Shown here piece after piece: positions 11,782 through 40,991 of a stretch of DNA of 64,000 nt. Position 1 is the first letter of the stretch. Every line of letters begins with the position of its first letter. Both the position numbers and the translations under genes were made by a program. The stretch lies in contig CAVYSR010000024.1 in NCBI GenBank assembly GCA_963771225.1, positions 101,181-165,180 on the forward strand, in the 5' to 3' direction. This stretch comes from an uncultured Pseudomonadota bacterium (GTDB taxonomy: Bacteria > Pseudomonadota > Alphaproteobacteria > Rhizobiales > Xanthobacteraceae). The notes under the pieces are model-generated. The model saw nothing but the letters and a program-made list of their open reading frames with translations, had not been told where the DNA came from and searched no databases.

Positions 11782-12932
11782 TAGTGGTCTCTGCCTAACA
11801 TAAGAAGTCCCGTTCGGGATTCCATTTGGTTGGCGCGCGTGCAAGTCTTAGGCATGCGCGCCGGGATTTCCATCAAGATCACACGACCAGATCGCCATCG
11901 GCTTGAAGCGATCACCAGGGACCGTAACGCCTCGCAGAAGCACGTTTGGCGAGCAAACATTGTGCTTCTGAGCGCCGACGGTGTCGGGACCAACGCGATC
12001 ATGCGCCAGACCGGCACGTCGAAGACCTGCGTCTGGCGCTGGCAGCAGCAATTCATGGAAGAGGGCGTCGACGGCCTCCTGCGAGACAAGACGCGCCCCT
12101 CGCGGGTTCCCGGGCACGGCCCGGAAGTGGCCGAGCGTGTGGTCGCGCTCACGTTGGCCGACCCGCCGACCGAGACGACCCATTGGACGGCCGATCTGAT
12201 GGCGCGGGCGAGCGGAATAAGTGCCAGCGCTGTCCGTCGCATCTGGAAAGCGCACGGGCTCCAACCTCACCGGTATCGGCAGTTCAAGCTCTCGAACGAT
12301 CCAAACTTCGTCGCCAAGCTGCGCGACGTTGTCGGGCTCTATGTCGATCCGCCGGCCCACGCCATCGTGCTGTCGGTCGACGAGAAGAGCCAAATTCAAG
12401 CCCTCGATCGCACCCAGCCAGGGCTGCCGCTGAAGAAGGGACGGCTCGGAACCATGACACACGATTACAAGAGGCACGGCACCACGACACTGTTTGCCGC
12501 CCTCAACGTCCTCGATGGCACGGTCATCGGCCGCAACATGCAGCGTCATCGTCATCAGGAACTCATTCGATTTCTCAACGACATCGAGGCGGAGGTTCCG
12601 GTCGGCAAGATCATCCACGTCATTCTCGACAACTATGCAGCTCACAAACACCCCAACGTTCGTGCCTGGCTCAATCGCCACCCGCGTTTCGTTTTCCACT
12701 TCACACCAACCTCGTGCTCCTGGCTCAACGCTGTCGAGGGGTTCTTCGCCAAGCTCAGCCGACGTCGCTTGAAACGTGGTGTCTTCCGCTCCGTCGTTGA
12801 TCTCCAGGCGGCCATCAACCGCTTCGTCGCTGAGACAAACGCCGATCCGAAGCCATTCACGTGGACCGCCAACCCTGACAAAATCATCGCCGCCGTCAAG
12901 AGAGGGCACCAAGTGTTAAATTCCATCCACTA
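11782..12932 (+). mobile_element. IS630-family insertion sequence
   Basis: CTAG at both ends (11781-11784, 12930-12933); imperfect terminal IRs TAGTGG-N8-TAACA; intact transposase inside. Confidence 0.92.
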
Positions 12933-12933
12933 G
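11854..12933 (+). CDS. IS630-family DDE transposase
   Basis: VDEKSQIQAL, THDYKRHGTTTLFAAL, ILDNYAAHK, FTPTSCSWLNAVEGFF motifs; stop codon lies in the right target site. Confidence 0.95.
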   Translation: MRAGISIKITRPDRHRLEAITRDRNASQKHVWRANIVLLSADGVGTNAIMRQTGTSKTCVWRWQQQFMEEGVDGLLRDKTRPSRVPGHGPEVAERVVALTLADPPTETTHWTADLMARASGISASAVRRIWKAHGLQPHRYRQFKLSNDPNFVAKLRDVVGLYVDPPAHAIVLSVDEKSQIQALDRTQPGLPLKKGRLGTMTHDYKRHGTTTLFAALNVLDGTVIGRNMQRHRHQELIRFLNDIEAEVPVGKIIHVILDNYAAHKHPNVRAWLNRHPRFVFHFTPTSCSWLNAVEGFFAKLSRRRLKRGVFRSVVDLQAAINRFVAETNADPKPFTWTANPDKIIAAVKRGHQVLNSIH

Positions 12934-13504
12934 AGCTGGAACTTGAGGTCTTCGACCGGGGAGACCGCCCCGACTACGAAGTTATTCGCGCTGTTATCAG
13001 CTATTTCGAAGTCTACCCGGAGGTGTATCACCATCCCCAGGAAGACCTGGTCTTTGCCAAGCTAAGAACGCGCGATCCGGTTGCGGCTGCGAAGGTCGGT
13101 GATCTCGCTCGCGAGCACCACAAAGGGGCTGAACGCTTGCGCCGGGTCGCTCACGCGGTCGAGAACGTGCTCGCGGATGGTGAAGTTCTTCGGCAAACTG
13201 TCGATACCATTGTTCGCGATTTCATCGCGCACGAGCGGCACCACATGATGATGGAAGATCGAGATTTCTTTCCTGCCGCGCTTAAGGCCCTTAAGCCTGA
13301 AGATTGGACGGAGATCGCTTCGGCCGTAACCGGTCATAGGGACCCGCTGTTCAGCGATGTCACCGAAGAGCGGTTCGATGCGCTACGCTCACATATTTCG
13401 CGGCTGGAGCAAGAGGCCGAAGCCGAACGAAAGTAGGCGCGCTTTCATCCGCAGCGCTTGGTTGTGCTCTGCGGCGAGCACCGGTCACTATGTGGGGCGC
13501 TGCC

Positions 13505-14077
13505 ATGATCATTGAGCGTTTGAGCCAAGAGCATCGAAATATAGAGAAGCTACTCACAATCTTTGAGCGGGAACTTAAGGTTTTCGACCGCGGCGTCCGC
13601 CCCGACTTTAAGGTTATTCGCGCGCTCATTAGCTACTTCGAACTTTACCCGGAGGTTTATCACCATCCCCAGGAAGACTTGGTCTTTGCCAAGCTGAAAA
13701 TTCGCGACCCGGCTGCGGCTGCGAAAGTCGGTGATCTCGCTCGCGAACACCAAAGAGGGGCGGACCGTTTGCGCCGCGTCGCTGATGCGGTCGACAGTGT
13801 TCTCGCGGGCCGTGAAATCCCTCAGCAAGATGTGGATTTCATCGTTCACGATTTCATAGAGCACGAGCGGCACCACATTACGATGGAAGATCGCGATTTT
13901 TTTCCTGCCGCCCTAAAGGCTTTTAAGCCTCAAGATTGGATGGAGATCGCTTCGGCCTTGACCAATCCTGAGGATCCGCTGTTCAGCGAGGCGGCCGAGG
14001 AGACGTTTGACGCGCTACGGGCACGCATCTTGCAGCTGGAACAAGACGCCGGAGCTGAACGAAAGTACCCGATATAA
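13505..14077 (+). CDS. Hemerythrin (HHE) domain protein, intact paralog
   Basis: EHRNI...HHPQED...REHQ...HHITMED His/Glu pattern. Confidence 0.88.
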   Translation: MIIERLSQEHRNIEKLLTIFERELKVFDRGVRPDFKVIRALISYFELYPEVYHHPQEDLVFAKLKIRDPAAAAKVGDLAREHQRGADRLRRVADAVDSVLAGREIPQQDVDFIVHDFIEHERHHITMEDRDFFPAALKAFKPQDWMEIASALTNPEDPLFSEAAEETFDALRARILQLEQDAGAERKYPI

Positions 14078-14175
14078 CCGACGAGCGAGTATTTTTCCGT
14101 CCGCGACTGCCGCTATTTCTCGACGAGATGTCCGTTTCTCCACTTTAGCCGCGCGGGTCACTTCCAGTCTTCTCC

Positions 14176-15402
14176 TGCCGGCTCAACCGGTCGACGCAAC
14201 ACAGGCATTAAATCTCTCTGCTGGCGTTTCAAATTGCAAGGTCTCACGTGGTCGCTCGTTTAACTGACGAGCCACTTTGTTCAGATGGGCTTGCGAATGC
14301 ACCGACAAGTCGGTGCCCTTTGGAAAGTACTGCCTCAGCAGGCCATTAGTATTCTCGTTCGACCCACGCTGCCACGGGCTTTGCGGGTCGCAAAAATAGA
14401 CATCGATGTTGGTCGCCATCGTAAAGCGCCGATGATCCGTCAGTTCCTTGCCCCGGTCCCAGGTCAGGGACTTATACAGCTCTTTCGGGAGCTTCTTCGA
14501 CTGCTTGATGAGCGCGTTGACTACCGTTTGGGTTTCCTTGCCTGCCACCTTGGCTAACATCACGTAACGCGTTTGACGCTCGACCAAGGTCGCAATGTAG
14601 GTGTTGTTCGGCCCGGACAGCAGATCGCCCTCCCAATGGCCAGGCACCGCCCTATCTTCCACTGCGGCCGGTCGCTGACGGATTGAGACCGCATCCTTCA
14701 TATGTCCCCGTCTATCGCCATTCGGATCAACTGGTCTGGAGCGACGCATCGAGCGCTTCGAGCGAAGATGGCGGAGCAGCTCTTTCTTGAGCACTCCGCG
14801 CGCTTGGACAAACAGGCTGCGATAGATGGTCTCGTGTGACACCCGATTACACTCGTCTTCAGGATGCGTTCTCTTCAGCCAACCGGCTATCTGCTCGGGT
14901 GACCAATCCAATCTGAGCTTCCTTGCCACGGCCTGCCGAAGCCGCGAATTGATCGCCAATTTACAACATTTTTGACGACGCGATCGCGCCCAGGCATTCT
15001 CGTCCGCAACTGTCGCCCGGTAGCGTTCACAGCCGCCATTGCGGTTCATTTCCCGGCTCACCGTCGAGGGCGAGCGGCCAAGCAATTTGGCGATAGACCG
15101 GGCCGATCGACGTGCCGTAACGCCTCTGGAAATCATCTCGCGTTCCGCAAGCGTCAATGCCAACCTGGAGCGACGCCGCTCCGCAGGACGGAACCCTCCA
15201 TGCGGGGCAACCAGAAAATAGATCGACGAGGAACTCCTTACCAAAAGCTCGCCCGATCGCCTTCAATAACTCCCCGCGCTTCCAACGGTCCCATAATTCC
15301 GTCTTTTCTGCCGCGGTAAAACCCCTATGAAATCTCCGTTCCATCCTACACTCCATCTTTTCCCGTTAAGATAAAGTGTTGCGTCGATCAGTTGAGACCG
15401 CC
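14176..15402 (-). mobile_element. IS30-family insertion sequence
   Basis: Terminal IRs CTCAACCGGTCGACGCAACAC (left) and reverse-complemented CTCAACTGATCGACGCAACAC (right) enclosing a transposase. Confidence 0.88.
14183..15344 (-). CDS. IS30-family transposase, one frameshift near 15235
   Basis: WSPEQIAGWL, SHETIY, PGHWEGDL, TWDRGKE, PWQRGSNENTNGLLRQYFPKG. Confidence 0.92.
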
Positions 15403-24756: not shown

Positions 24757-24831
24757 GGACGCATTGCCCAGCGGGAGAGCGCTCCCTTCACACAAGAGAG
24801 GTCCAAGGTTCGATCCCTTGTGCGTTCACCA
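24757..24831 (+). tRNA. tRNA-Val(CAC), degenerate (possible pseudo-tRNA)
   Basis: GGACGCA/TGCGTTC acceptor stem, CAAGG-TTCGATC-CCTTG T arm, encoded CCA; one C-A mismatch in the D stem and two in the anticodon stem. Confidence 0.75.
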
Positions 24832-35352: not shown

Positions 35353-36907
35353 TTATCCTCCCATCTGCACTTCGATCAGGCGCGGTCCCTTTTCGGCCAC
35401 ACCCTCCGCCAGCGCCTTGTTGAACTCGTCGACATTGGTCACCGCGCGGCCGGGCACACCCATGCCTCTGGCGAGCGAAACAAAGTCGAGCGTGGGCCGG
35501 TCGATCTTCAGCATGTCGAGGGCGCGCTGTCCGGGTTCGCCGGCGCCGACGCCATCGAATTCGCCGCGCAGGATCTGATAGATCCGGTTGGCGAACACGA
35601 TGGTCAGAACGTTGAGGCCTTCGCGGGCCTGGGTCCACAGCGATTGCAGCGTGTACATCGCGCTGCCGTCGCCGACCATGCAGATCACCTTGCGATCCGG
35701 GCACGCCACCGCCGCACCGGTTGAGATCGGCGTCGAAAATCCGATCGAGCCGCCCATGTTCTGCAGCCAGTCATGCGGGGCGGCGGCCGCCGTCGGCGGA
35801 AAGAAGCCGCGGCCGGTTGTGATGGACTCATCGACGATGATGGCATTTTCCGGGATCGCCAGCGCGATCGCCTGCGCGATCGAGGCGTGGGTCAGCGCCC
35901 CCGTCGGCCTGGTCAATTCGACGAGCTGCTGCGGCTTGACGTCCTGCGGCGTCGCGCGAAGCGCATCCGACAGCGCCTCCAGCGCGGCAACCGAATTTTC
36001 GCCCCACGCCGTCATGCGGTGGACCTCGCAGCCCTCGGGCTTGAGCATGCTCGGCTTGTTCGGATAGGCAAAGAAGGCGACCGGATCGTTGGCCTCGACC
36101 AGAATGATGTTCTTGAAGTCCTTCAGGAGCGGCAGCGCCGTCTCGATCACGTAAGGGATACGGTCGATCGAGAACCGGCCGCGGCCGCGCGCCATGCGCG
36201 GGTGATAGGTCTGGCCCATCACCTTGCAGCCGGTCTTGCCGGCAATCCGCTGCGCCAGCGCCAGCCCCTTTTCGGTCAGCGCGCTGCCGGTGATCAGCAG
36301 CAGGTTCTGCGCAGCCCCGCCATGCAGCAGCTTCGCCGCCCGCTCGACCGCCTCCGGCGGAATAACCGGCGCGCTGGCTTGGCGCCGGCACCTCGGCGAT
36401 GCCATCGGCTTCGTTCCATGCGGTATCCGCGGGCAGGATCAGGGTCGCGATCTCAGGCGGCGAACTTTTGGCCGCGGCGATCGCGGCAGCCCCATCGGCG
36501 GCGACCGATTTGGCGTCGGGCGAGGTTCGCACCCAGGCCGACATCGGCCGCGCCAGCCCCTCGATATCGGAGGTCAGCGGCGCATTCAGCCCGATATGAT
36601 AGGTCGCATGCTGGCCGACGATGTTGACGATGCCGGAATGGGCCTTCTTGGCGTTGTGCAGATTGGCAAGTCCGTTGGCGAGGCCGGGTCCAAGGTGCAG
36701 CAGCGTCGATGCCGGCGTGCCCTTCATGCGGAAATAGCCGTCGGCAGCCCCCGTCACCACGCCCTCGAACAGGCCGAGCACGCAGCGCATGCCCTCGACC
36801 CGGTCCAGTGCGGCGACAAAATGCATCTCCGAGGTGCCGGGATTGGCGAAACAGACGTCAACGCCACCCGCGACCAGGGTCCGCACCAGACTTTCCGCAC
36901 CGTTCAT
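35353..36907 (-). CDS. Acetolactate synthase large subunit-like ThDP enzyme, frameshift near 36380
   Basis: MNGAESLV...FANPGTSE; GDGSAMY...N ThDP motif. Confidence 0.9.
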
Positions 36908-37683: not shown

Positions 37684-37870
37684 ACCCTATCCGCGCCAAA
37701 GGGAGCGCGCGCCGCAATCGCTTCATCGAAATGCCCAAGGCCGATGAAGGCAATCCCACACCTGTGTAATGTAAGTCGCGAATACGATCGGATCGGGCGC
37801 GCTTAGTGGCGCGTTCGAAACTCCGGACGTCGCAGCATCGAAATCACCAGCAACCCTGAAGGGAATTGTC

Positions 37871-38966
37871 ATGGCCTCGCGCCGTCATTTTCTGAAGGCG
37901 GGCGCCGACCGGCATCGTCTTTTGCGGCTGCGGTCTCCTGCACGGCGTGCACGCCCAGCAGCCGGCACGGCAGAAATTACCCGTCATGGTCGGTGGCAAA
38001 CGGGTCAAAACGATCGACGTGCACGCCCATTGCCAGTTCCGCGAAGCCGGCGCACTGCTCGGCGCCGGCGCTGCCTCGCTCGTCGACGGACGACCATTCA
38101 ACGAGGTCGCGGCCGTGGCCTTCATCGAGATCGACAAGCGGCTCGCCGCCATGGACGCGCAGGCGGTCGACATGGAAGTGCTGTCGATCAATCCATTCTG
38201 GTATGGCAGCGAGCGCGATCTCGCCGGCCAGATCGTGAAGCTGCAGAACGAAAAGCTGGCAGAACTCTGCGCCTCCAAACCCGACCGGTTTGCGGCCTTC
38301 GCCTCGCTCACCCTGCAGGCGCCCGATCTCGCCGTGCAGGAACTGGAAACCGCGGTTGGGAAACAGGGGCTCAAGGGAGCCGCGATCGGCGGCACTGTCA
38401 ACGGCGAGGCATTTTCCGATCCGAAATTTCATCCGGTGTGGGCCAAGGCGGAAGAACTCGGCGTGCCCCTGTTCATTCATCCGACGGGCATCCCCGAGCT
38501 TGCGAAGAAATTGGCCGGCAACGGTTGGCTCACCAACGCGGTCGGCTATCCCCTGGAGACGACGATCGCACTCTCGCACCTCATCTTCGAGGGCACGTTC
38601 GATCGCTTTCCGAAGCTCAAAGTGATCGCCGCCCATGGCGGCGGCTTCCTGCCGTCCTACGCCGATCGTTCGGACCACGCCTGTCTGGTCAGTCCGAGGA
38701 GCTGCAATCCGAATATCCAGCTCAAGAAGGCGCCGACGGAGTATCTCAAGCAGATCTATTTCGATTCGCTGATCTTCACGCCCGAGGCGATCCGGCATCT
38801 GGTGGCCCAGGTCGGCGCCAGTCAGGTCGTGCTGGGCAGCGACTGTCCGTATCCATGGCAGTTGCAACCGGTCGACCATATTTTCGCATCGGAATCGCTC
38901 TCCGACGACCACAAGGCCGATATCCTCGGCCGCACCGCGGCACGACTGTTGAATTTCACCGCCTGA
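37871..38966 (+). CDS. Tat-exported amidohydrolase_2 (ACMSD/LigW-like) protein, frameshift near 37907
   Basis: MASRRHFL Tat motif; IDVHAH, LFIHP, AHGGG, GSDCPY. Confidence 0.88.
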
Positions 38967-39010
38967 CATCTGCTGGGGCGTTAAAGCGAGCTGGATCTGC
39001 CCATGACGAG

Positions 39011-39026
39011 TGTGCGCGCGGTCACA
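39011..39026. promoter_or_regulatory. CRP-family-like site upstream of precursor 1
   Basis: TGTGC-GCGCGG-TCACA versus consensus TGTGA-N6-TCACA; conserved before precursor 2. Confidence 0.55.
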
Positions 39027-39106
39027 TCGCGCCGTCTCCACGTCTGGCTAGGTGGAAAGCGGTAGGCACTTCTGCCGACCCTAGCAACCTGACCTGGAGA
39101 TTACTC

Positions 39107-39304
39107 ATGATCGACGACAGCAAAGTTACCAAGACCAACTCGCGCATCCTGGCCCGCCAGCTCGCGCGGCCGCTCACCGACGAAGAGATCGATTACGTTG
39201 GCGGCGGCATGATTGCGCGCGCCGAGATCGGTGGCGCCTCGGCCACCCGCCGTGCCGATACGTGCTCGACCACGGGCTGCCCCGCGAACGACAGCGACTG
39301 TTGA
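39107..39304 (+). CDS. RiPP (graspetide-type) precursor peptide 1, 65 aa
   Basis: GGAGA RBS; MIDDSKVTKTNSRILARQLARPLTDEEIDYVGG-GMIARAEIGGASATRRADTCSTTGCPANDSDC; paralog at 40627. Confidence 0.88.
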   Translation: MIDDSKVTKTNSRILARQLARPLTDEEIDYVGGGMIARAEIGGASATRRADTCSTTGCPANDSDC

Positions 39305-39312
39305 CTTACCTT

Positions 39313-39347
39313 GTCCCCGCCGACCTATTGCGCCGGTCGGCGGAGAC
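39313..39347 (+). terminator. GC-rich stem-loop after precursor 1 (no U-tract; stabiliser or attenuator)
   Basis: GTCCCCGCCGACC-N9-GGTCGGCGGAGAC. Confidence 0.6.
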
Positions 39348-39389
39348 CGCTCAACTCAAGCGATATTCAAAGCAAGGGGTCGATATCCG

Positions 39390-40511
39390 ATGACCGTCCT
39401 CATTCTCGGCTTTCCCCAGGATGTCCATATTCATGCGGTCCGCTGGGCGATCGAACAGGCGGGGGGGCGGCATCACACCGTCTACGCGCCGGACCTGCCG
39501 CAGGTGCTGCGGTCATCGATGCACATTACGCAAACCTCACACGCCGTCTCCGTTCGCGATGGCGAGGGCCATGGAGCAAGCGGCGACTGGAGCACGGTAT
39601 GGTTCCGCCGCAGCGGGCTGCCGATGCGGCCGCCTGGCATGTCGGATGCGGATTGGGCCGTGGCTTCCCGCGAATGCGACTATCACATCCGCAACCTGCG
39701 GCAGCTCATCGCGCCTGACGCCTTCTGGGTGAATAATATCGCGGCACGCGAGGTGGTGTTGCTGAAGATGCCTCAACTCGTCGCTGCCGCGCAGTGTGGT
39801 TTGGCCATCCCTGAGACACTCTACAGCAACGATCCCGAAGAGATCCGCCGCTTCTGGGGTGAGCATCGCAACGCGGGCGTCATCTTCAAGCTGCATTTGC
39901 AGACGCATTGGCATGCGCAATCGAGCGGCGAGCGCCACGCGCTTTTCACCACCGAGCTGCGCCAGGAGAACCTTCAGGACGATGAGCCGCTTGCGGGCTG
40001 CCCGGCGATTTATCAGCGCAAGGTCGAGAAGGCCTACGAATTGCGCGTCACCTGCATGGACGAGCGCTGCGTGGCCATTCGTCTCGACTCGCAGTCGCGC
40101 GATTCGACGCGGCTCGATTGGCGATCGGATATGGTGGCGCCGCTCAAGCCGTCGCTGGTCGTATTGCCACGCACGGTCGAGGAGCGGTGCATCGCGCTCA
40201 TGCGCAAGCTCGGACTTGCCTTCGGCTGCATCGATCTCATCGTTACGCCCGAGGGGGAACACATTTTCCTCGAGGTCAACGAGATGGGGCAGTTTCTGTG
40301 GGTGGAACAGGACGAGCCAAGATCGGAGCTGCTCCGCTGCTTTGCGACGCTCCTGCTCCATCGGCAGCTTGGGCCGGCGAGCAGGCTCGTCGGCGATGAA
40401 GGATTGAGTTACGCGGGCTTTCTCGCTTCCGGCGCGTGGGAGCGAGGCTACGCCGAGGACGGCGAGAGCCATGCCAAGTATTCTCCACCGGGCCTCATCA
40501 ACGAACCTTGA
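39390..40511 (+). CDS. ATP-grasp peptide maturase (graspetide synthetase, MvdC/MvdD-like)
   Basis: TVWFRR, WVN, KMPQL, IPETLYSN, IFK, PAIYQRKVEKAYELRVT, RLDWR, GLAFGCIDLI, FLEVNEMGQFLWVE. Confidence 0.9.
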   Translation: MTVLILGFPQDVHIHAVRWAIEQAGGRHHTVYAPDLPQVLRSSMHITQTSHAVSVRDGEGHGASGDWSTVWFRRSGLPMRPPGMSDADWAVASRECDYHIRNLRQLIAPDAFWVNNIAAREVVLLKMPQLVAAAQCGLAIPETLYSNDPEEIRRFWGEHRNAGVIFKLHLQTHWHAQSSGERHALFTTELRQENLQDDEPLAGCPAIYQRKVEKAYELRVTCMDERCVAIRLDSQSRDSTRLDWRSDMVAPLKPSLVVLPRTVEERCIALMRKLGLAFGCIDLIVTPEGEHIFLEVNEMGQFLWVEQDEPRSELLRCFATLLLHRQLGPASRLVGDEGLSYAGFLASGAWERGYAEDGESHAKYSPPGLINEP

Positions 40512-40515
40512 CGAG

Positions 40516-40531
40516 TGTGGGCGCGATCACA
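40516..40531. promoter_or_regulatory. CRP-family-like site upstream of precursor 2
   Basis: TGTGG-GCGCGA-TCACA. Confidence 0.55.
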
Positions 40532-40626
40532 TCGCGCAGCCTCCACGTCTGGCAGCGTGAAAGCGGTCGGCGCTTCTGCCGACCCTAGCAACCCAGACTT
40601 GTTCAACCCAGACTTGGAGACTGCTC

Positions 40627-40827
40627 ATGATCAACGACACCAAAGTTACCAAGACCAACGCGCGGATCCTGGCCCGCCAGCTCGCGCGGCCGCTCACCGA
40701 CGACGAGATCGCCCACGTTGCCGGCGGTATGATTTCGCGCGGCGAGACAGGTGGCGTCAGCTCTGCGAGCGTGCGTCATACTCCCACTACGGCCTCGGTC
40801 TGCCCCGGGAACGACGCCGACGAGTGA
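40627..40827 (+). CDS. RiPP (graspetide-type) precursor peptide 2, 66 aa
   Basis: GGAGA RBS; MINDTKVTKTNARILARQLARPLTDDEIAHVAGG-MISRGETGGVSSASVRHTPTTASVCPGNDADE. Confidence 0.88.
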   Translation: MINDTKVTKTNARILARQLARPLTDDEIAHVAGGMISRGETGGVSSASVRHTPTTASVCPGNDADE

Positions 40828-40835
40828 TTTACTTG

Positions 40836-40862
40836 CTCCCCGCCGACCTGGTCGGCGGGGAG
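40836..40862 (+). terminator. Perfect inverted repeat after precursor 2
   Basis: CTCCCCGCCGACC-T-GGTCGGCGGGGAG. Confidence 0.65.
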
Positions 40863-40991
40863 AACTCGCAAGATAGGGAACCGGGGGTGAGCGCCCCGTG
40901 GCTTCCGCTTCGAGCGCCTCCGGTCAAGCGTGTCAAGCCTTGTTGCGCTCAAGCCTTGCGCGCGCGCGGCGATTGCGGCAGCGTCGATGCG

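What the first reader, a model, noticed from the sequence alone, without database searches (positions are those of the whole stretch)
39004..40862. Compact RiPP cassette: graspetide-type ATP-grasp ligase flanked by two paralogous precursor peptides
Seen: a 373-aa ATP-grasp gene sits between two 65/66-aa ORFs. These have GGAGA RBSs and near-identical leaders (KVTKTNxRILARQLARPLTD(E/D)EIxxV(G/A)GG) but divergent Ser/Thr-rich C-termini ending in CPxNDxD. Precursor 1 is hidden at the end of a spurious 477-aa ORF and would be missed by annotation. Known: microviridin (MdnB/MdnC) and plesiocin (PsnB) type ATP-grasp enzymes carry a D(W/F)R motif and link Ser/Thr/Lys side chains to Asp/Glu. This enzyme has RLDWR and FLEVNxxGQFLW. 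Inference: one enzyme matures two different ester-macrocyclised peptides. The leader lacks the microviridin PFFARFL motif and the cores lack TxKYPSD, so the products may be undescribed.
Basis: partly seen in the sequence, partly recalled or inferred. Interest (0 to 1): 0.9.

Follow-up and report, generated by a model that had tools for sequence, protein, structure and literature searches.

The report
Two-core cysteine hairpin graspetide cassette
A peptide-cross-linking enzyme gene sits between two small peptide genes in a soil bacterium and is predicted to turn each into a two-ring cyclic peptide; it is an unstudied branch of a known peptide class, already listed but unclassified in published genome-mining tables.

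Summary
Observation confirmed: a 373-aa ATP-grasp gene between 65- and 66-aa precursors. The enzyme is a graspetide synthetase, not RimK/GshB, in its own well-supported subclade. Novelty is lower than claimed: the leader is that of graspetide groups 8/16 (36, 37), and the Bradyrhizobium Ec3.3 orthologue with its precursor is already in Carter 2026 (group blank) and in Makarova 2022's tree. What I did not find in those tables: both cores share [ST]x[ST]xCPxxDxD (57 of 62 homologues, 0 of 77 precursors outside the subclade; 86), pointing to two ester rings; precursor 2 is not a fresh duplicate but a widespread second core type (B), never seen upstream of an intact enzyme and often beside a deleted one; each precursor travels with a CRP-type box and a hairpin; the unit is a rare insertion (2 of 400 genus genomes) without the transporter kept by distant relatives. 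Ring pattern, cysteine chemistry, activity and expression are inferred. This scan earlier noted a cysteine-core group 8 locus on other DNA.

The parts
39011..39026 (+). CRP/CAP-type box TGTGN-N6-TCACA (9 of 10 match) upstream of precursor 1
   Evidence: perfect in 15 of 17 loci whose enzyme is 88% or more identical
39096..39100 (+). RBS GGAGA of precursor 1
39107..39304 (+). Precursor 1 (65 aa), type A core, three Cys (C53, C58, C65)
39143..39208 (+). Conserved leader R13-G34 of precursor 1 ending in a double-glycine site
39266..39298 (+). Core motif S54-x-T56-x-C58-P-x-x-D62-x-D64 (predicted donors and acceptors)
   Evidence: pairing inferred
39315..39345 (+). GC-rich hairpin between precursor 1 and the enzyme, no U-tract
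   Evidence: (z -3.2)
39390..40511 (+). Graspetide synthetase (ATP-grasp ligase, 373 aa); R73/R74, K126, K167, R219, D243-W244-R245, E295, N297 invariant in 61 homologues
40516..40531 (+). Second CRP/CAP-type box (9 of 10 match), 5 nt after the enzyme stop
40616..40620 (+). RBS GGAGA of precursor 2
40627..40827 (+). Precursor 2 (66 aa), type B core, one Cys (C59)
40789..40821 (+). Core motif T55-x-S57-x-C59-P-x-x-D63-x-D65 (predicted donors and acceptors)
   Evidence: pairing inferred
40836..40862 (+). Perfect 13-bp hairpin after precursor 2
   Evidence: (z -3.5)
37947..38966 (+). Amidohydrolase_2 gene; inside the same inserted stretch but not part of the cassette in any other locus

Best explanation
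The 373-aa gene encodes a graspetide synthetase that likely binds the near-identical leaders of both neighbouring precursors and is predicted to close two side-chain ester rings in each core, giving two different small cyclic peptides. Inferred chemistry: ATP-dependent activation of the two conserved Asp residues and attack by the two conserved hydroxyls, most likely nested as a hairpin around the Cys-Pro turn (precursor 1: T56-D62 and S54-D64; precursor 2: S57-D63 and T55-D65). Type A cores would in addition form a disulfide; type B cores have one Cys and cannot do so within the chain. The leader would be cut at the double glycine and the peptide exported by an unlinked C39 peptidase ABC transporter. 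Each precursor carries its own CRP-type site, so the module is likely switched by a cyclic-nucleotide-binding regulator; the hairpin likely keeps precursor mRNA in excess of enzyme mRNA. Precursor 2 is a type B module that was likely joined to the end of a type A cassette by short-homology recombination. Confidence about 0.93 for 'graspetide cassette', 0.75 for 'both precursors are substrates', 0.55 for the whole account with the named rings.
For: Enzyme: TIGR04184/04187/04185 E 3e-52 to 5e-49, RimK E 0.003; MdnC E 5e-42; model pLDDT 93.6, Foldseek ranks MdnC, CdnC, AMdnB, MdnB, PruB, PsnB above RimK; D(F/W)R loop and arginines described as critical in PsnB (bioRxiv 10.1101/2021.03.09.434688, passages) have invariant counterparts (R219 mapped by position, not by direct alignment to PsnB). 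Cores: positions -4 and -2 from the Cys are S or T in 22 of 22 type A and 36 of 37 / 37 of 37 type B proteins, with S and T swapped between the types, D+4 and D+6 in 59 of 59, while -3, -1, +2, +3 vary; no Lys in either window core. Leader: RILARQLAR invariant with only synonymous changes in 19 distinct DNA copies. Cys: type A holds 2-3 Cys in 21 of 22; the four W(-5) loci all carry C+7. Transporter: C39 peptidase gene linked in 10 of 25 more distant subclade loci, 0 of 21 close ones; one full C39 transporter with HlyD elsewhere in this genome. Regulation: 18 perfect boxes at spacer 6 against 0-1 at spacers 4, 5, 7, 8 in this genome, half-sites kept while spacers change; a cNMP-binding CRP with a CAP-like RESVNR helix beside a nucleotidyl cyclase gene (motif meaning from PMC10187061 passages).
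Against: No biochemistry. S/T swaps are single-base changes (TCG/ACG) and the homologues are related, so counts overstate independence. Type A has a further near-invariant Thr at -6 (21 of 22) that the two-ring model leaves unused. Eight of 25 distinct subclade precursors do not fit the motif, some lacking D+6. Both window boxes carry one mismatch. The hairpins have no U-tract and were not called terminators. The deep tree is unresolved: AU tests did not reject joining the subclade with RimK+GshB (p 0.39), the thatisin type (0.42) or the group 8 reference (0.47); only microviridin enzymes were rejected (0.007). A synthetase with an intact DFR motif can be inactive without a partner protein (MirB, PMC13097080). 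RNA runs gave only low-depth pieces of enzyme homologues and none of a precursor in the two true metatranscriptomes.
Confidence: 0.55

Rival explanations
1. It is a graspetide cassette acting on both precursors, but with other connectivity: crossed rather than nested esters, use of Thr(-6), or the conserved Cys as a thioester donor to one Asp.
For: Cys0 is invariant in 22 of 22 type A proteins and 19 of 19 DNA copies; ester-forming synthetases can make thioesters on engineered substrates (PMC12291112 and PMC13097080 passages); both cage and hairpin topologies are known; T(-6) is near-invariant in type A.
Against: Cys0 is replaced by Ala or Phe in 5 of 63 type B sequences; two hydroxyls and two Asp are conserved at matching spacing in both types; the papers read call thioester linkages non-native.
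Confidence: 0.25
2. Only precursor 1 is a real substrate; precursor 2 and other type B copies are relics that spread from an allele whose enzyme was deleted, and are not expressed or not matured.
For: Type B was upstream of an intact enzyme in 0 of 19 close loci with a precursor in that place (17, the plasmid, the window); the C9 copy is followed by a 32-codon enzyme remnant and the same deletion joint appears in runs X1, X8, X16; type B tolerates loss of the Cys.
Against: 37 type B clusters keep T(-4), S(-2), PGND and D+6 while the linker before them varies in sequence and length; RBS, leader, box and hairpin are intact; type B occurs with both short and long leaders.
Confidence: 0.13
3. The enzyme needs an unlinked partner, or modifies the peptides in another way (RimK-like addition of amino acids), so no macrocycle arises from this cassette alone.
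For: Partner-dependent synthetases exist (PMC13097080); the enzyme is below the cut-off of every NCBIfam model; it has a C-terminal extension of about 50 residues absent from MdnC; the AU test did not exclude a root next to RimK/GshB.
Against: No gene other than the precursor is conserved beside the enzyme in close loci; no BLASTP hit to E. coli RimK at E 10 and 26 bits to the genome's own GshB, which lies elsewhere.
Confidence: 0.07

Closest known systems
Graspetide group 8 as labelled in Carter et al. 2026 (PMC13097080, supplement) / precursor cluster 75 of Makarova et al. 2022 (PMC8939145)
   Same: Leader RxLxRxLAxxLxxEExxxxxGG (group 8 rows with LARQLAR and LARRLAR), single synthetase, short single core, frequent multiple precursors, some Cys-bearing cores, linked peptidase transporter in relatives.
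   Different: Enzyme only 35% identical to my one labelled group 8 enzyme (score 53); rows of this subclade have a blank group; core motif absent from 77 of 77 outside precursors; no transporter in close loci.
Group 16, thatisin (Ramesh et al. 2021; paper not held, seen only through PMC10849128 passages and Carter rows)
   Same: Leader matches the leader profile built here (E 2e-4); Asp-x-Asp-type acidic end.
   Different: Enzyme 33% identical, separate clade; core has no Cys and fails the motif in 4 of 4.
Ungrouped Bradyrhizobium sp. Ec3.3 pair, WP_027527464.1 (Carter 2026 row 20516; Makarova 2022 tree leaf 2359)
   Same: Direct orthologue: 91% enzyme identity, type A precursor, same box and hairpin.
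   Different: One precursor only; listed without group, core motif or experiment; no type B core found in the stored table.
Microviridins (group 1; MdnA/MdnB/MdnC) and plesiocin (group 2; PsnB)
   Same: Same fold and catalytic motifs; the microviridin leader FFARFL...LTDEExxxVSGG parallels ILARQL...LTDEEIxxVxGG; plesiocin is the model for a nested two-ester hairpin.
   Different: One ligase, not two; PFFARFL, TxKxPSD and TTxxxxEE absent; grouping with MvdC/D rejected; no Lys, so no lactam.

Membership tests
Graspetides (class) | ATP-grasp enzyme of the graspetide synthetase subfamily | tested here: met
Graspetides (class) | D(F/W)R loop, core-binding arginines, ATP/Mg ligands intact | tested here: met
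   against PsnB passages; arginines mapped by position
Graspetides (class) | Adjacent precursor with conserved leader and core holding S/T/K donors and D/E acceptors | tested here: met
Graspetides (class) | ATP-dependent side-chain ester or amide formation | not testable with these tools
   needs co-expression and mass spectrometry
Graspetide group 8 | Leader type | tested here: met
   (group 8 precursor of L025 scores E 1.5e-8 on the leader profile)
Graspetide group 8 | Enzyme inside the group 8 network cluster at alignment score 70 | tested here: inconclusive
   Authors left the orthologue ungrouped; direct score to L025 is 53; but my single-linkage network of 124 enzymes joined the subclade to an 85-member component through four edges of 71-74 to L010, whose precursor is labelled group 19
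Graspetide group 8 | Published group 8 core consensus (Lee et al. 2020) | not tested
   paper not read; Makarova notes cluster 75 precursors do not match it either
Graspetide group 8 | High co-occurrence with a peptidase-containing transporter | tested here: not met
   0 of 21 close loci (0 of 10 that are 5 kb or longer), 10 of 25 distant subclade loci
Graspetide group 16 (thatisin) | Enzyme cluster and core sequence | tested here: not met
   scores 43-44, separate component and clade; core differs
Microviridins (group 1) | PFFARFL leader, TxKxPSD core, MvdC/MvdD cut-offs | tested here: not met
Plesiocin (group 2) | TTxxxxEE core | tested here: not met
RimK / GshB | Family model score | tested here: not met
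   RimK 17 bits against cut-off 143; GshB model finds only the gene on contig C14

The most novel reading that the evidence does not exclude
A new graspetide group in which the conserved Cys is part of the product's chemistry (a native thioester ring, or an ester hairpin locked by a switchable disulfide), made from a dispersed set of precursor modules: one cyclic-nucleotide-controlled synthetase matures type A peptides in cis and enzyme-less type B peptides in trans. A native thioester would be a first among the graspetides described in the papers I read.
Probability: 0.12. Interest if true: 0.75.

Novelty: new variant of a known kind. Interest (0 to 1): 0.4.

Why it matters
Graspetide groups already number 43 and precursor families 174, so one more ungrouped branch is not surprising by itself. 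Its value is practical: a minimal two-gene system with a natural pair of substrates on one leader, a sharply defined core motif that gives a testable ring prediction, and conserved cysteines that let one ask whether thioesters or disulfides occur in natural graspetides. The orphan type B modules and the CRP-type box also give a handle on two open points for this class: maturation in trans and when the peptides are made.

Tried and rejected
Structured RNA or riboswitch upstream: no Rfam match near threshold; consensus fold of 8 copies has 0 of 23 pairs with compensatory change, so the possible pairing over the RBS is unproven; the palindrome is better read as a CRP-type DNA site. Sigma-70 promoter and intrinsic terminator scans: nothing on the + strand. 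Sigma-54 site: GG-to-GC spacing is 10 only in copy 2 and 11 in the others (read), rejected. 477-aa ORF as a gene: rejected. Precursor 2 as a fresh duplicate of precursor 1: rejected. Self-mobile element or phage cargo: no transposase, integrase or terminal repeat in the unit, and no match in viral contigs; an IS110 fragment beside L004 and IS256 beside the plasmid copy differ from locus to locus. Expression: contigs of four RNA-labelled runs cannot show it. Tree placement among groups: unresolved. Papers not held: Ramesh 2021, Choi 2024. Carter's supplement is stored cut and its PDF tables were not available, so rows or motif tables that I could not see may bear on the novelty claim. Searches for prior description: graspetide + Bradyrhizobium, 0 papers; graspetide + thioester + cysteine, 5 papers, none on a natural case by title and abstract start; graspetide + disulfide, 18 papers, 16 listings seen only.

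Full report
Observation. RBSs, leaders and CPxNDxD ends are as described. The repeat is larger than the ORFs: about 100 nt upstream (84-94% identical), the leader (88%) and the stop-plus-hairpin region (78%) are all doubled. The second copy starts directly at the enzyme stop, where CCTTGA-CGAG resembles CCATGA-CGAG at the start of the first copy. The 477-aa frame is broken in 5 of 5 homologous loci tested.

The enzyme. NCBIfam gives four graspetide maturase models at 96-178 bits, all below their cut-offs, and RimK at 17 bits. All six PDB sequence matches are listed as ATP-grasp ligases, CdnC, AMdnB or an MvdD-like protein, best 5ig9. The model (pLDDT 93.6) matches MdnC, CdnC, AMdnB, MdnB, PruB and PsnB before RimK. 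In 61 aligned homologues (chosen from the best 120) R73, R74, K126, K167, R219, D243-W244-R245, E295 and N297 are invariant, matching by position the residues called critical in PsnB (bioRxiv 10.1101/2021.03.09.434688, passages). In trees of 124 and 42 enzymes it lies in a subclade of 56-94% identical proteins on a long stem with full support, apart from MvdC/MvdD, the thatisin type, RimK and GshB. Deeper order is unresolved: AU tests rejected only union with MvdC/D (p 0.007), not with RimK+GshB (0.39), thatisin type (0.42) or the group 8 reference (0.47); the case against RimK/GshB rests on profile, BLAST and fold scores.

What is in print. Carter et al. 2026 (PMC13097080; main text parts 1-2 of 6, passages, and searches of the stored, cut supplement table) list the Bradyrhizobium sp. 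Ec3.3 enzyme WP_027527464.1 with its precursor, and Azospirillum rugosum, two Piscinibacter and a Hyphomicrobium row of the same subclade, all with a blank group; new groups needed 20 members. The Ec3.3 enzyme is 91% identical to ours. Makarova et al. 2022 (PMC8939145; abstract, sections 3, 5, two of three parts of 6, supplement searches and three parts) hold the same enzyme as an unlabelled leaf with unchecked precursor candidates, and their cluster 75 has the same leader. Rows labelled group 8, 16 and 20 share the leader, and some group 8 cores carry cysteines. The microviridin precursor of Nostoc PCC 7120 shows the same leader plan, FFARFL then LTDEExxxVSGG. So the leader is not new. Five of six exact core strings, including the type B one, had no hit in Carter's stored table; the sixth hit only the Ec3.3 row. 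No held paper contains both Bradyrhizobium and graspetide. The thatisin paper was not held (passages in PMC10849128), and Lee 2020 was not read.

The cores. A leader profile grown from the two precursors found 118 matching ORFs in 133 loci. A protein search with precursor 2 gave 61 homologues. Of these plus the query (62), 22 are type A (DT[CW][ST]xTGCPxxDSD), 37 type B (T[AY]SVCPGNDAD) and 3 have broken ends; 57 of 62 fit [ST]x[ST]xCPxxDxD, as do 17 of 25 distinct subclade precursors from loci and 0 of 77 outside. The search was seeded with type B, so the 37:22 ratio is no frequency. Positions -4 and -2 stay hydroxylated while S and T trade places between the types, D+4 and D+6 never change, and the positions between vary. 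I read this as two esters, nested by analogy with plesiocin and other hairpin graspetides: T56-D62 and S54-D64 in precursor 1, S57-D63 and T55-D65 in precursor 2. This is inference; the swaps are one-base changes and the sequences are kin. The central Cys is kept in all 22 type A but is Ala or Phe in 5 of 63 type B sequences, which argues against it being a required donor. Type A keeps two or three Cys in 21 of 22, and the four loci with W at -5 all have Cys at +7, a hint of a disulfide, possibly from one event.

Precursor 2 is a type B module. The same genome holds a second full type A cassette (contig C17, enzyme 93% identical) and a type B precursor on C9 followed by only 32 codons of enzyme. 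Precursor 2 shares the short KTN leader with precursor 1 but 32 of 32 aligned bases of its last codons with the C9 copy, against 26 of 33 with precursor 1; all four combinations of leader length and core type occur, as expected from recombination between copies. In 19 close loci with a precursor directly upstream of an intact enzyme, all are type A (17, the plasmid, the window). The deletion joint seen on C9 recurs in contigs of runs X1, X8 and X16, three studies. Type B therefore looks like a substrate matured in trans or, less likely, a relic; its context is known for few copies.

Regulatory parts. The upstream stretch is no known RNA and shows no covariation. It carries TGTGA-N6-TCACA 92-106 nt before the start, perfect in 15 of 17 close loci and one off in the other two, with changing spacers; one-mismatch boxes occur in 2 of 14 more distant subclade loci and in 0 of 83 outside. 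This genome has 18 perfect sites at spacer 6 and 0-1 at four other spacers. That is the CAP consensus (PMC10187061, passages); one of the ten CRP-family helices examined is CAP-like and its gene neighbours a nucleotidyl cyclase. Both window boxes have one mismatch. Each precursor is followed by a stable hairpin (z -3.2 and -3.5) without a U-tract.

Spread and export. The unit sits among different neighbours in each of the close loci examined, on a conjugative plasmid in Bradyrhizobium sp. CB82, and in 2 of 400 sampled genomes of the genus. In 23 of the 24 best-matching relatives the L,D-transpeptidase gene adjoins the DUF2927 gene with nothing of the amidohydrolase or cassette between; the 24th is cut by a contig end. 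So about 3.3 kb, 37690-40945, is an insertion. No mobility gene is part of it, and viral contigs gave no match. A C39 peptidase gene is linked in 10 of 25 distant subclade loci and 0 of 21 close ones; this genome has an unlinked one. The host is probably a Bradyrhizobium, inferred from the named 90% homologues. Four precursor copies in one 78%-complete assembly could partly reflect strain mixture; contigs of X1 and X3 support the left flank, the right flank and, one letter short of the threshold, the central junction.

Verdict. A real graspetide cassette of an ungrouped subclade in the group 8/16 leader family: listed in print, not characterised in anything I could read. The shared core motif, the second core type, the orphan alleles and the CRP-type box are what this analysis adds. 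New variant of a known kind, interest 0.4.

Noticed in passing
L059:7140-8670 (G000 contig C17, about 87139-88666, - strand): Second complete type A cassette in the same genome, enzyme 93% identical, perfect CRP-type box, W(-5) core.
   Followed up: yes
L060:5091-5580 (G000 contig C9, - strand): Orphan type B precursor with box, RBS and hairpin, followed by a 32-codon enzyme remnant; the same deletion joint is in three public runs.
   Followed up: yes
L061:6537-7805 (G000 contig C19, - strand): A second, unrelated graspetide pair: enzyme 37% identical over 195 aa and a 95-aa precursor with a signal-like start and a CxxC core, close to a row labelled group 13 in Carter 2026.
   Followed up: partly
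L238:2963-8606 and 13787-15301 (G000 contig C14): CAP-like CRP gene beside a GAF/HAMP nucleotidyl cyclase; a perfect CRP-type box lies upstream of a nearby caspase-domain gene. Caspase-domain genes also neighbour the cassette in L003 and on the CB82 plasmid.
   Followed up: partly
L029, L031, L042, L199-L215: Lysobacter synthetases about 40% identical, with no leader-profile hit nearby in the three loci checked (L029, L031, L042); many lie within open frames of about 1000 codons, possibly fusions.
   Followed up: no
proteins P0154 and P0184: A type A and a type B precursor with the same short leader both have a longest contig of 8537 bases: a hint of a second A-plus-B arrangement elsewhere, not verified.
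   Followed up: no
L238:1265-1654: DarT-like ADP-ribosyltransferase fragment (130 aa).
   Followed up: no
window 11830-15244 and 24757-24831: Two transposase genes (DDE_3 and integrase-core types) in the lower-GC left part of the window, and a tRNA-Val at its right edge, suggesting an island.
   Followed up: no
window 35356-36907: A thiamine-diphosphate enzyme gene appears split over two frames (C-terminal domain 35356-36405; N-terminal part in 35828-36907), a frameshift or assembly error.
   Followed up: no
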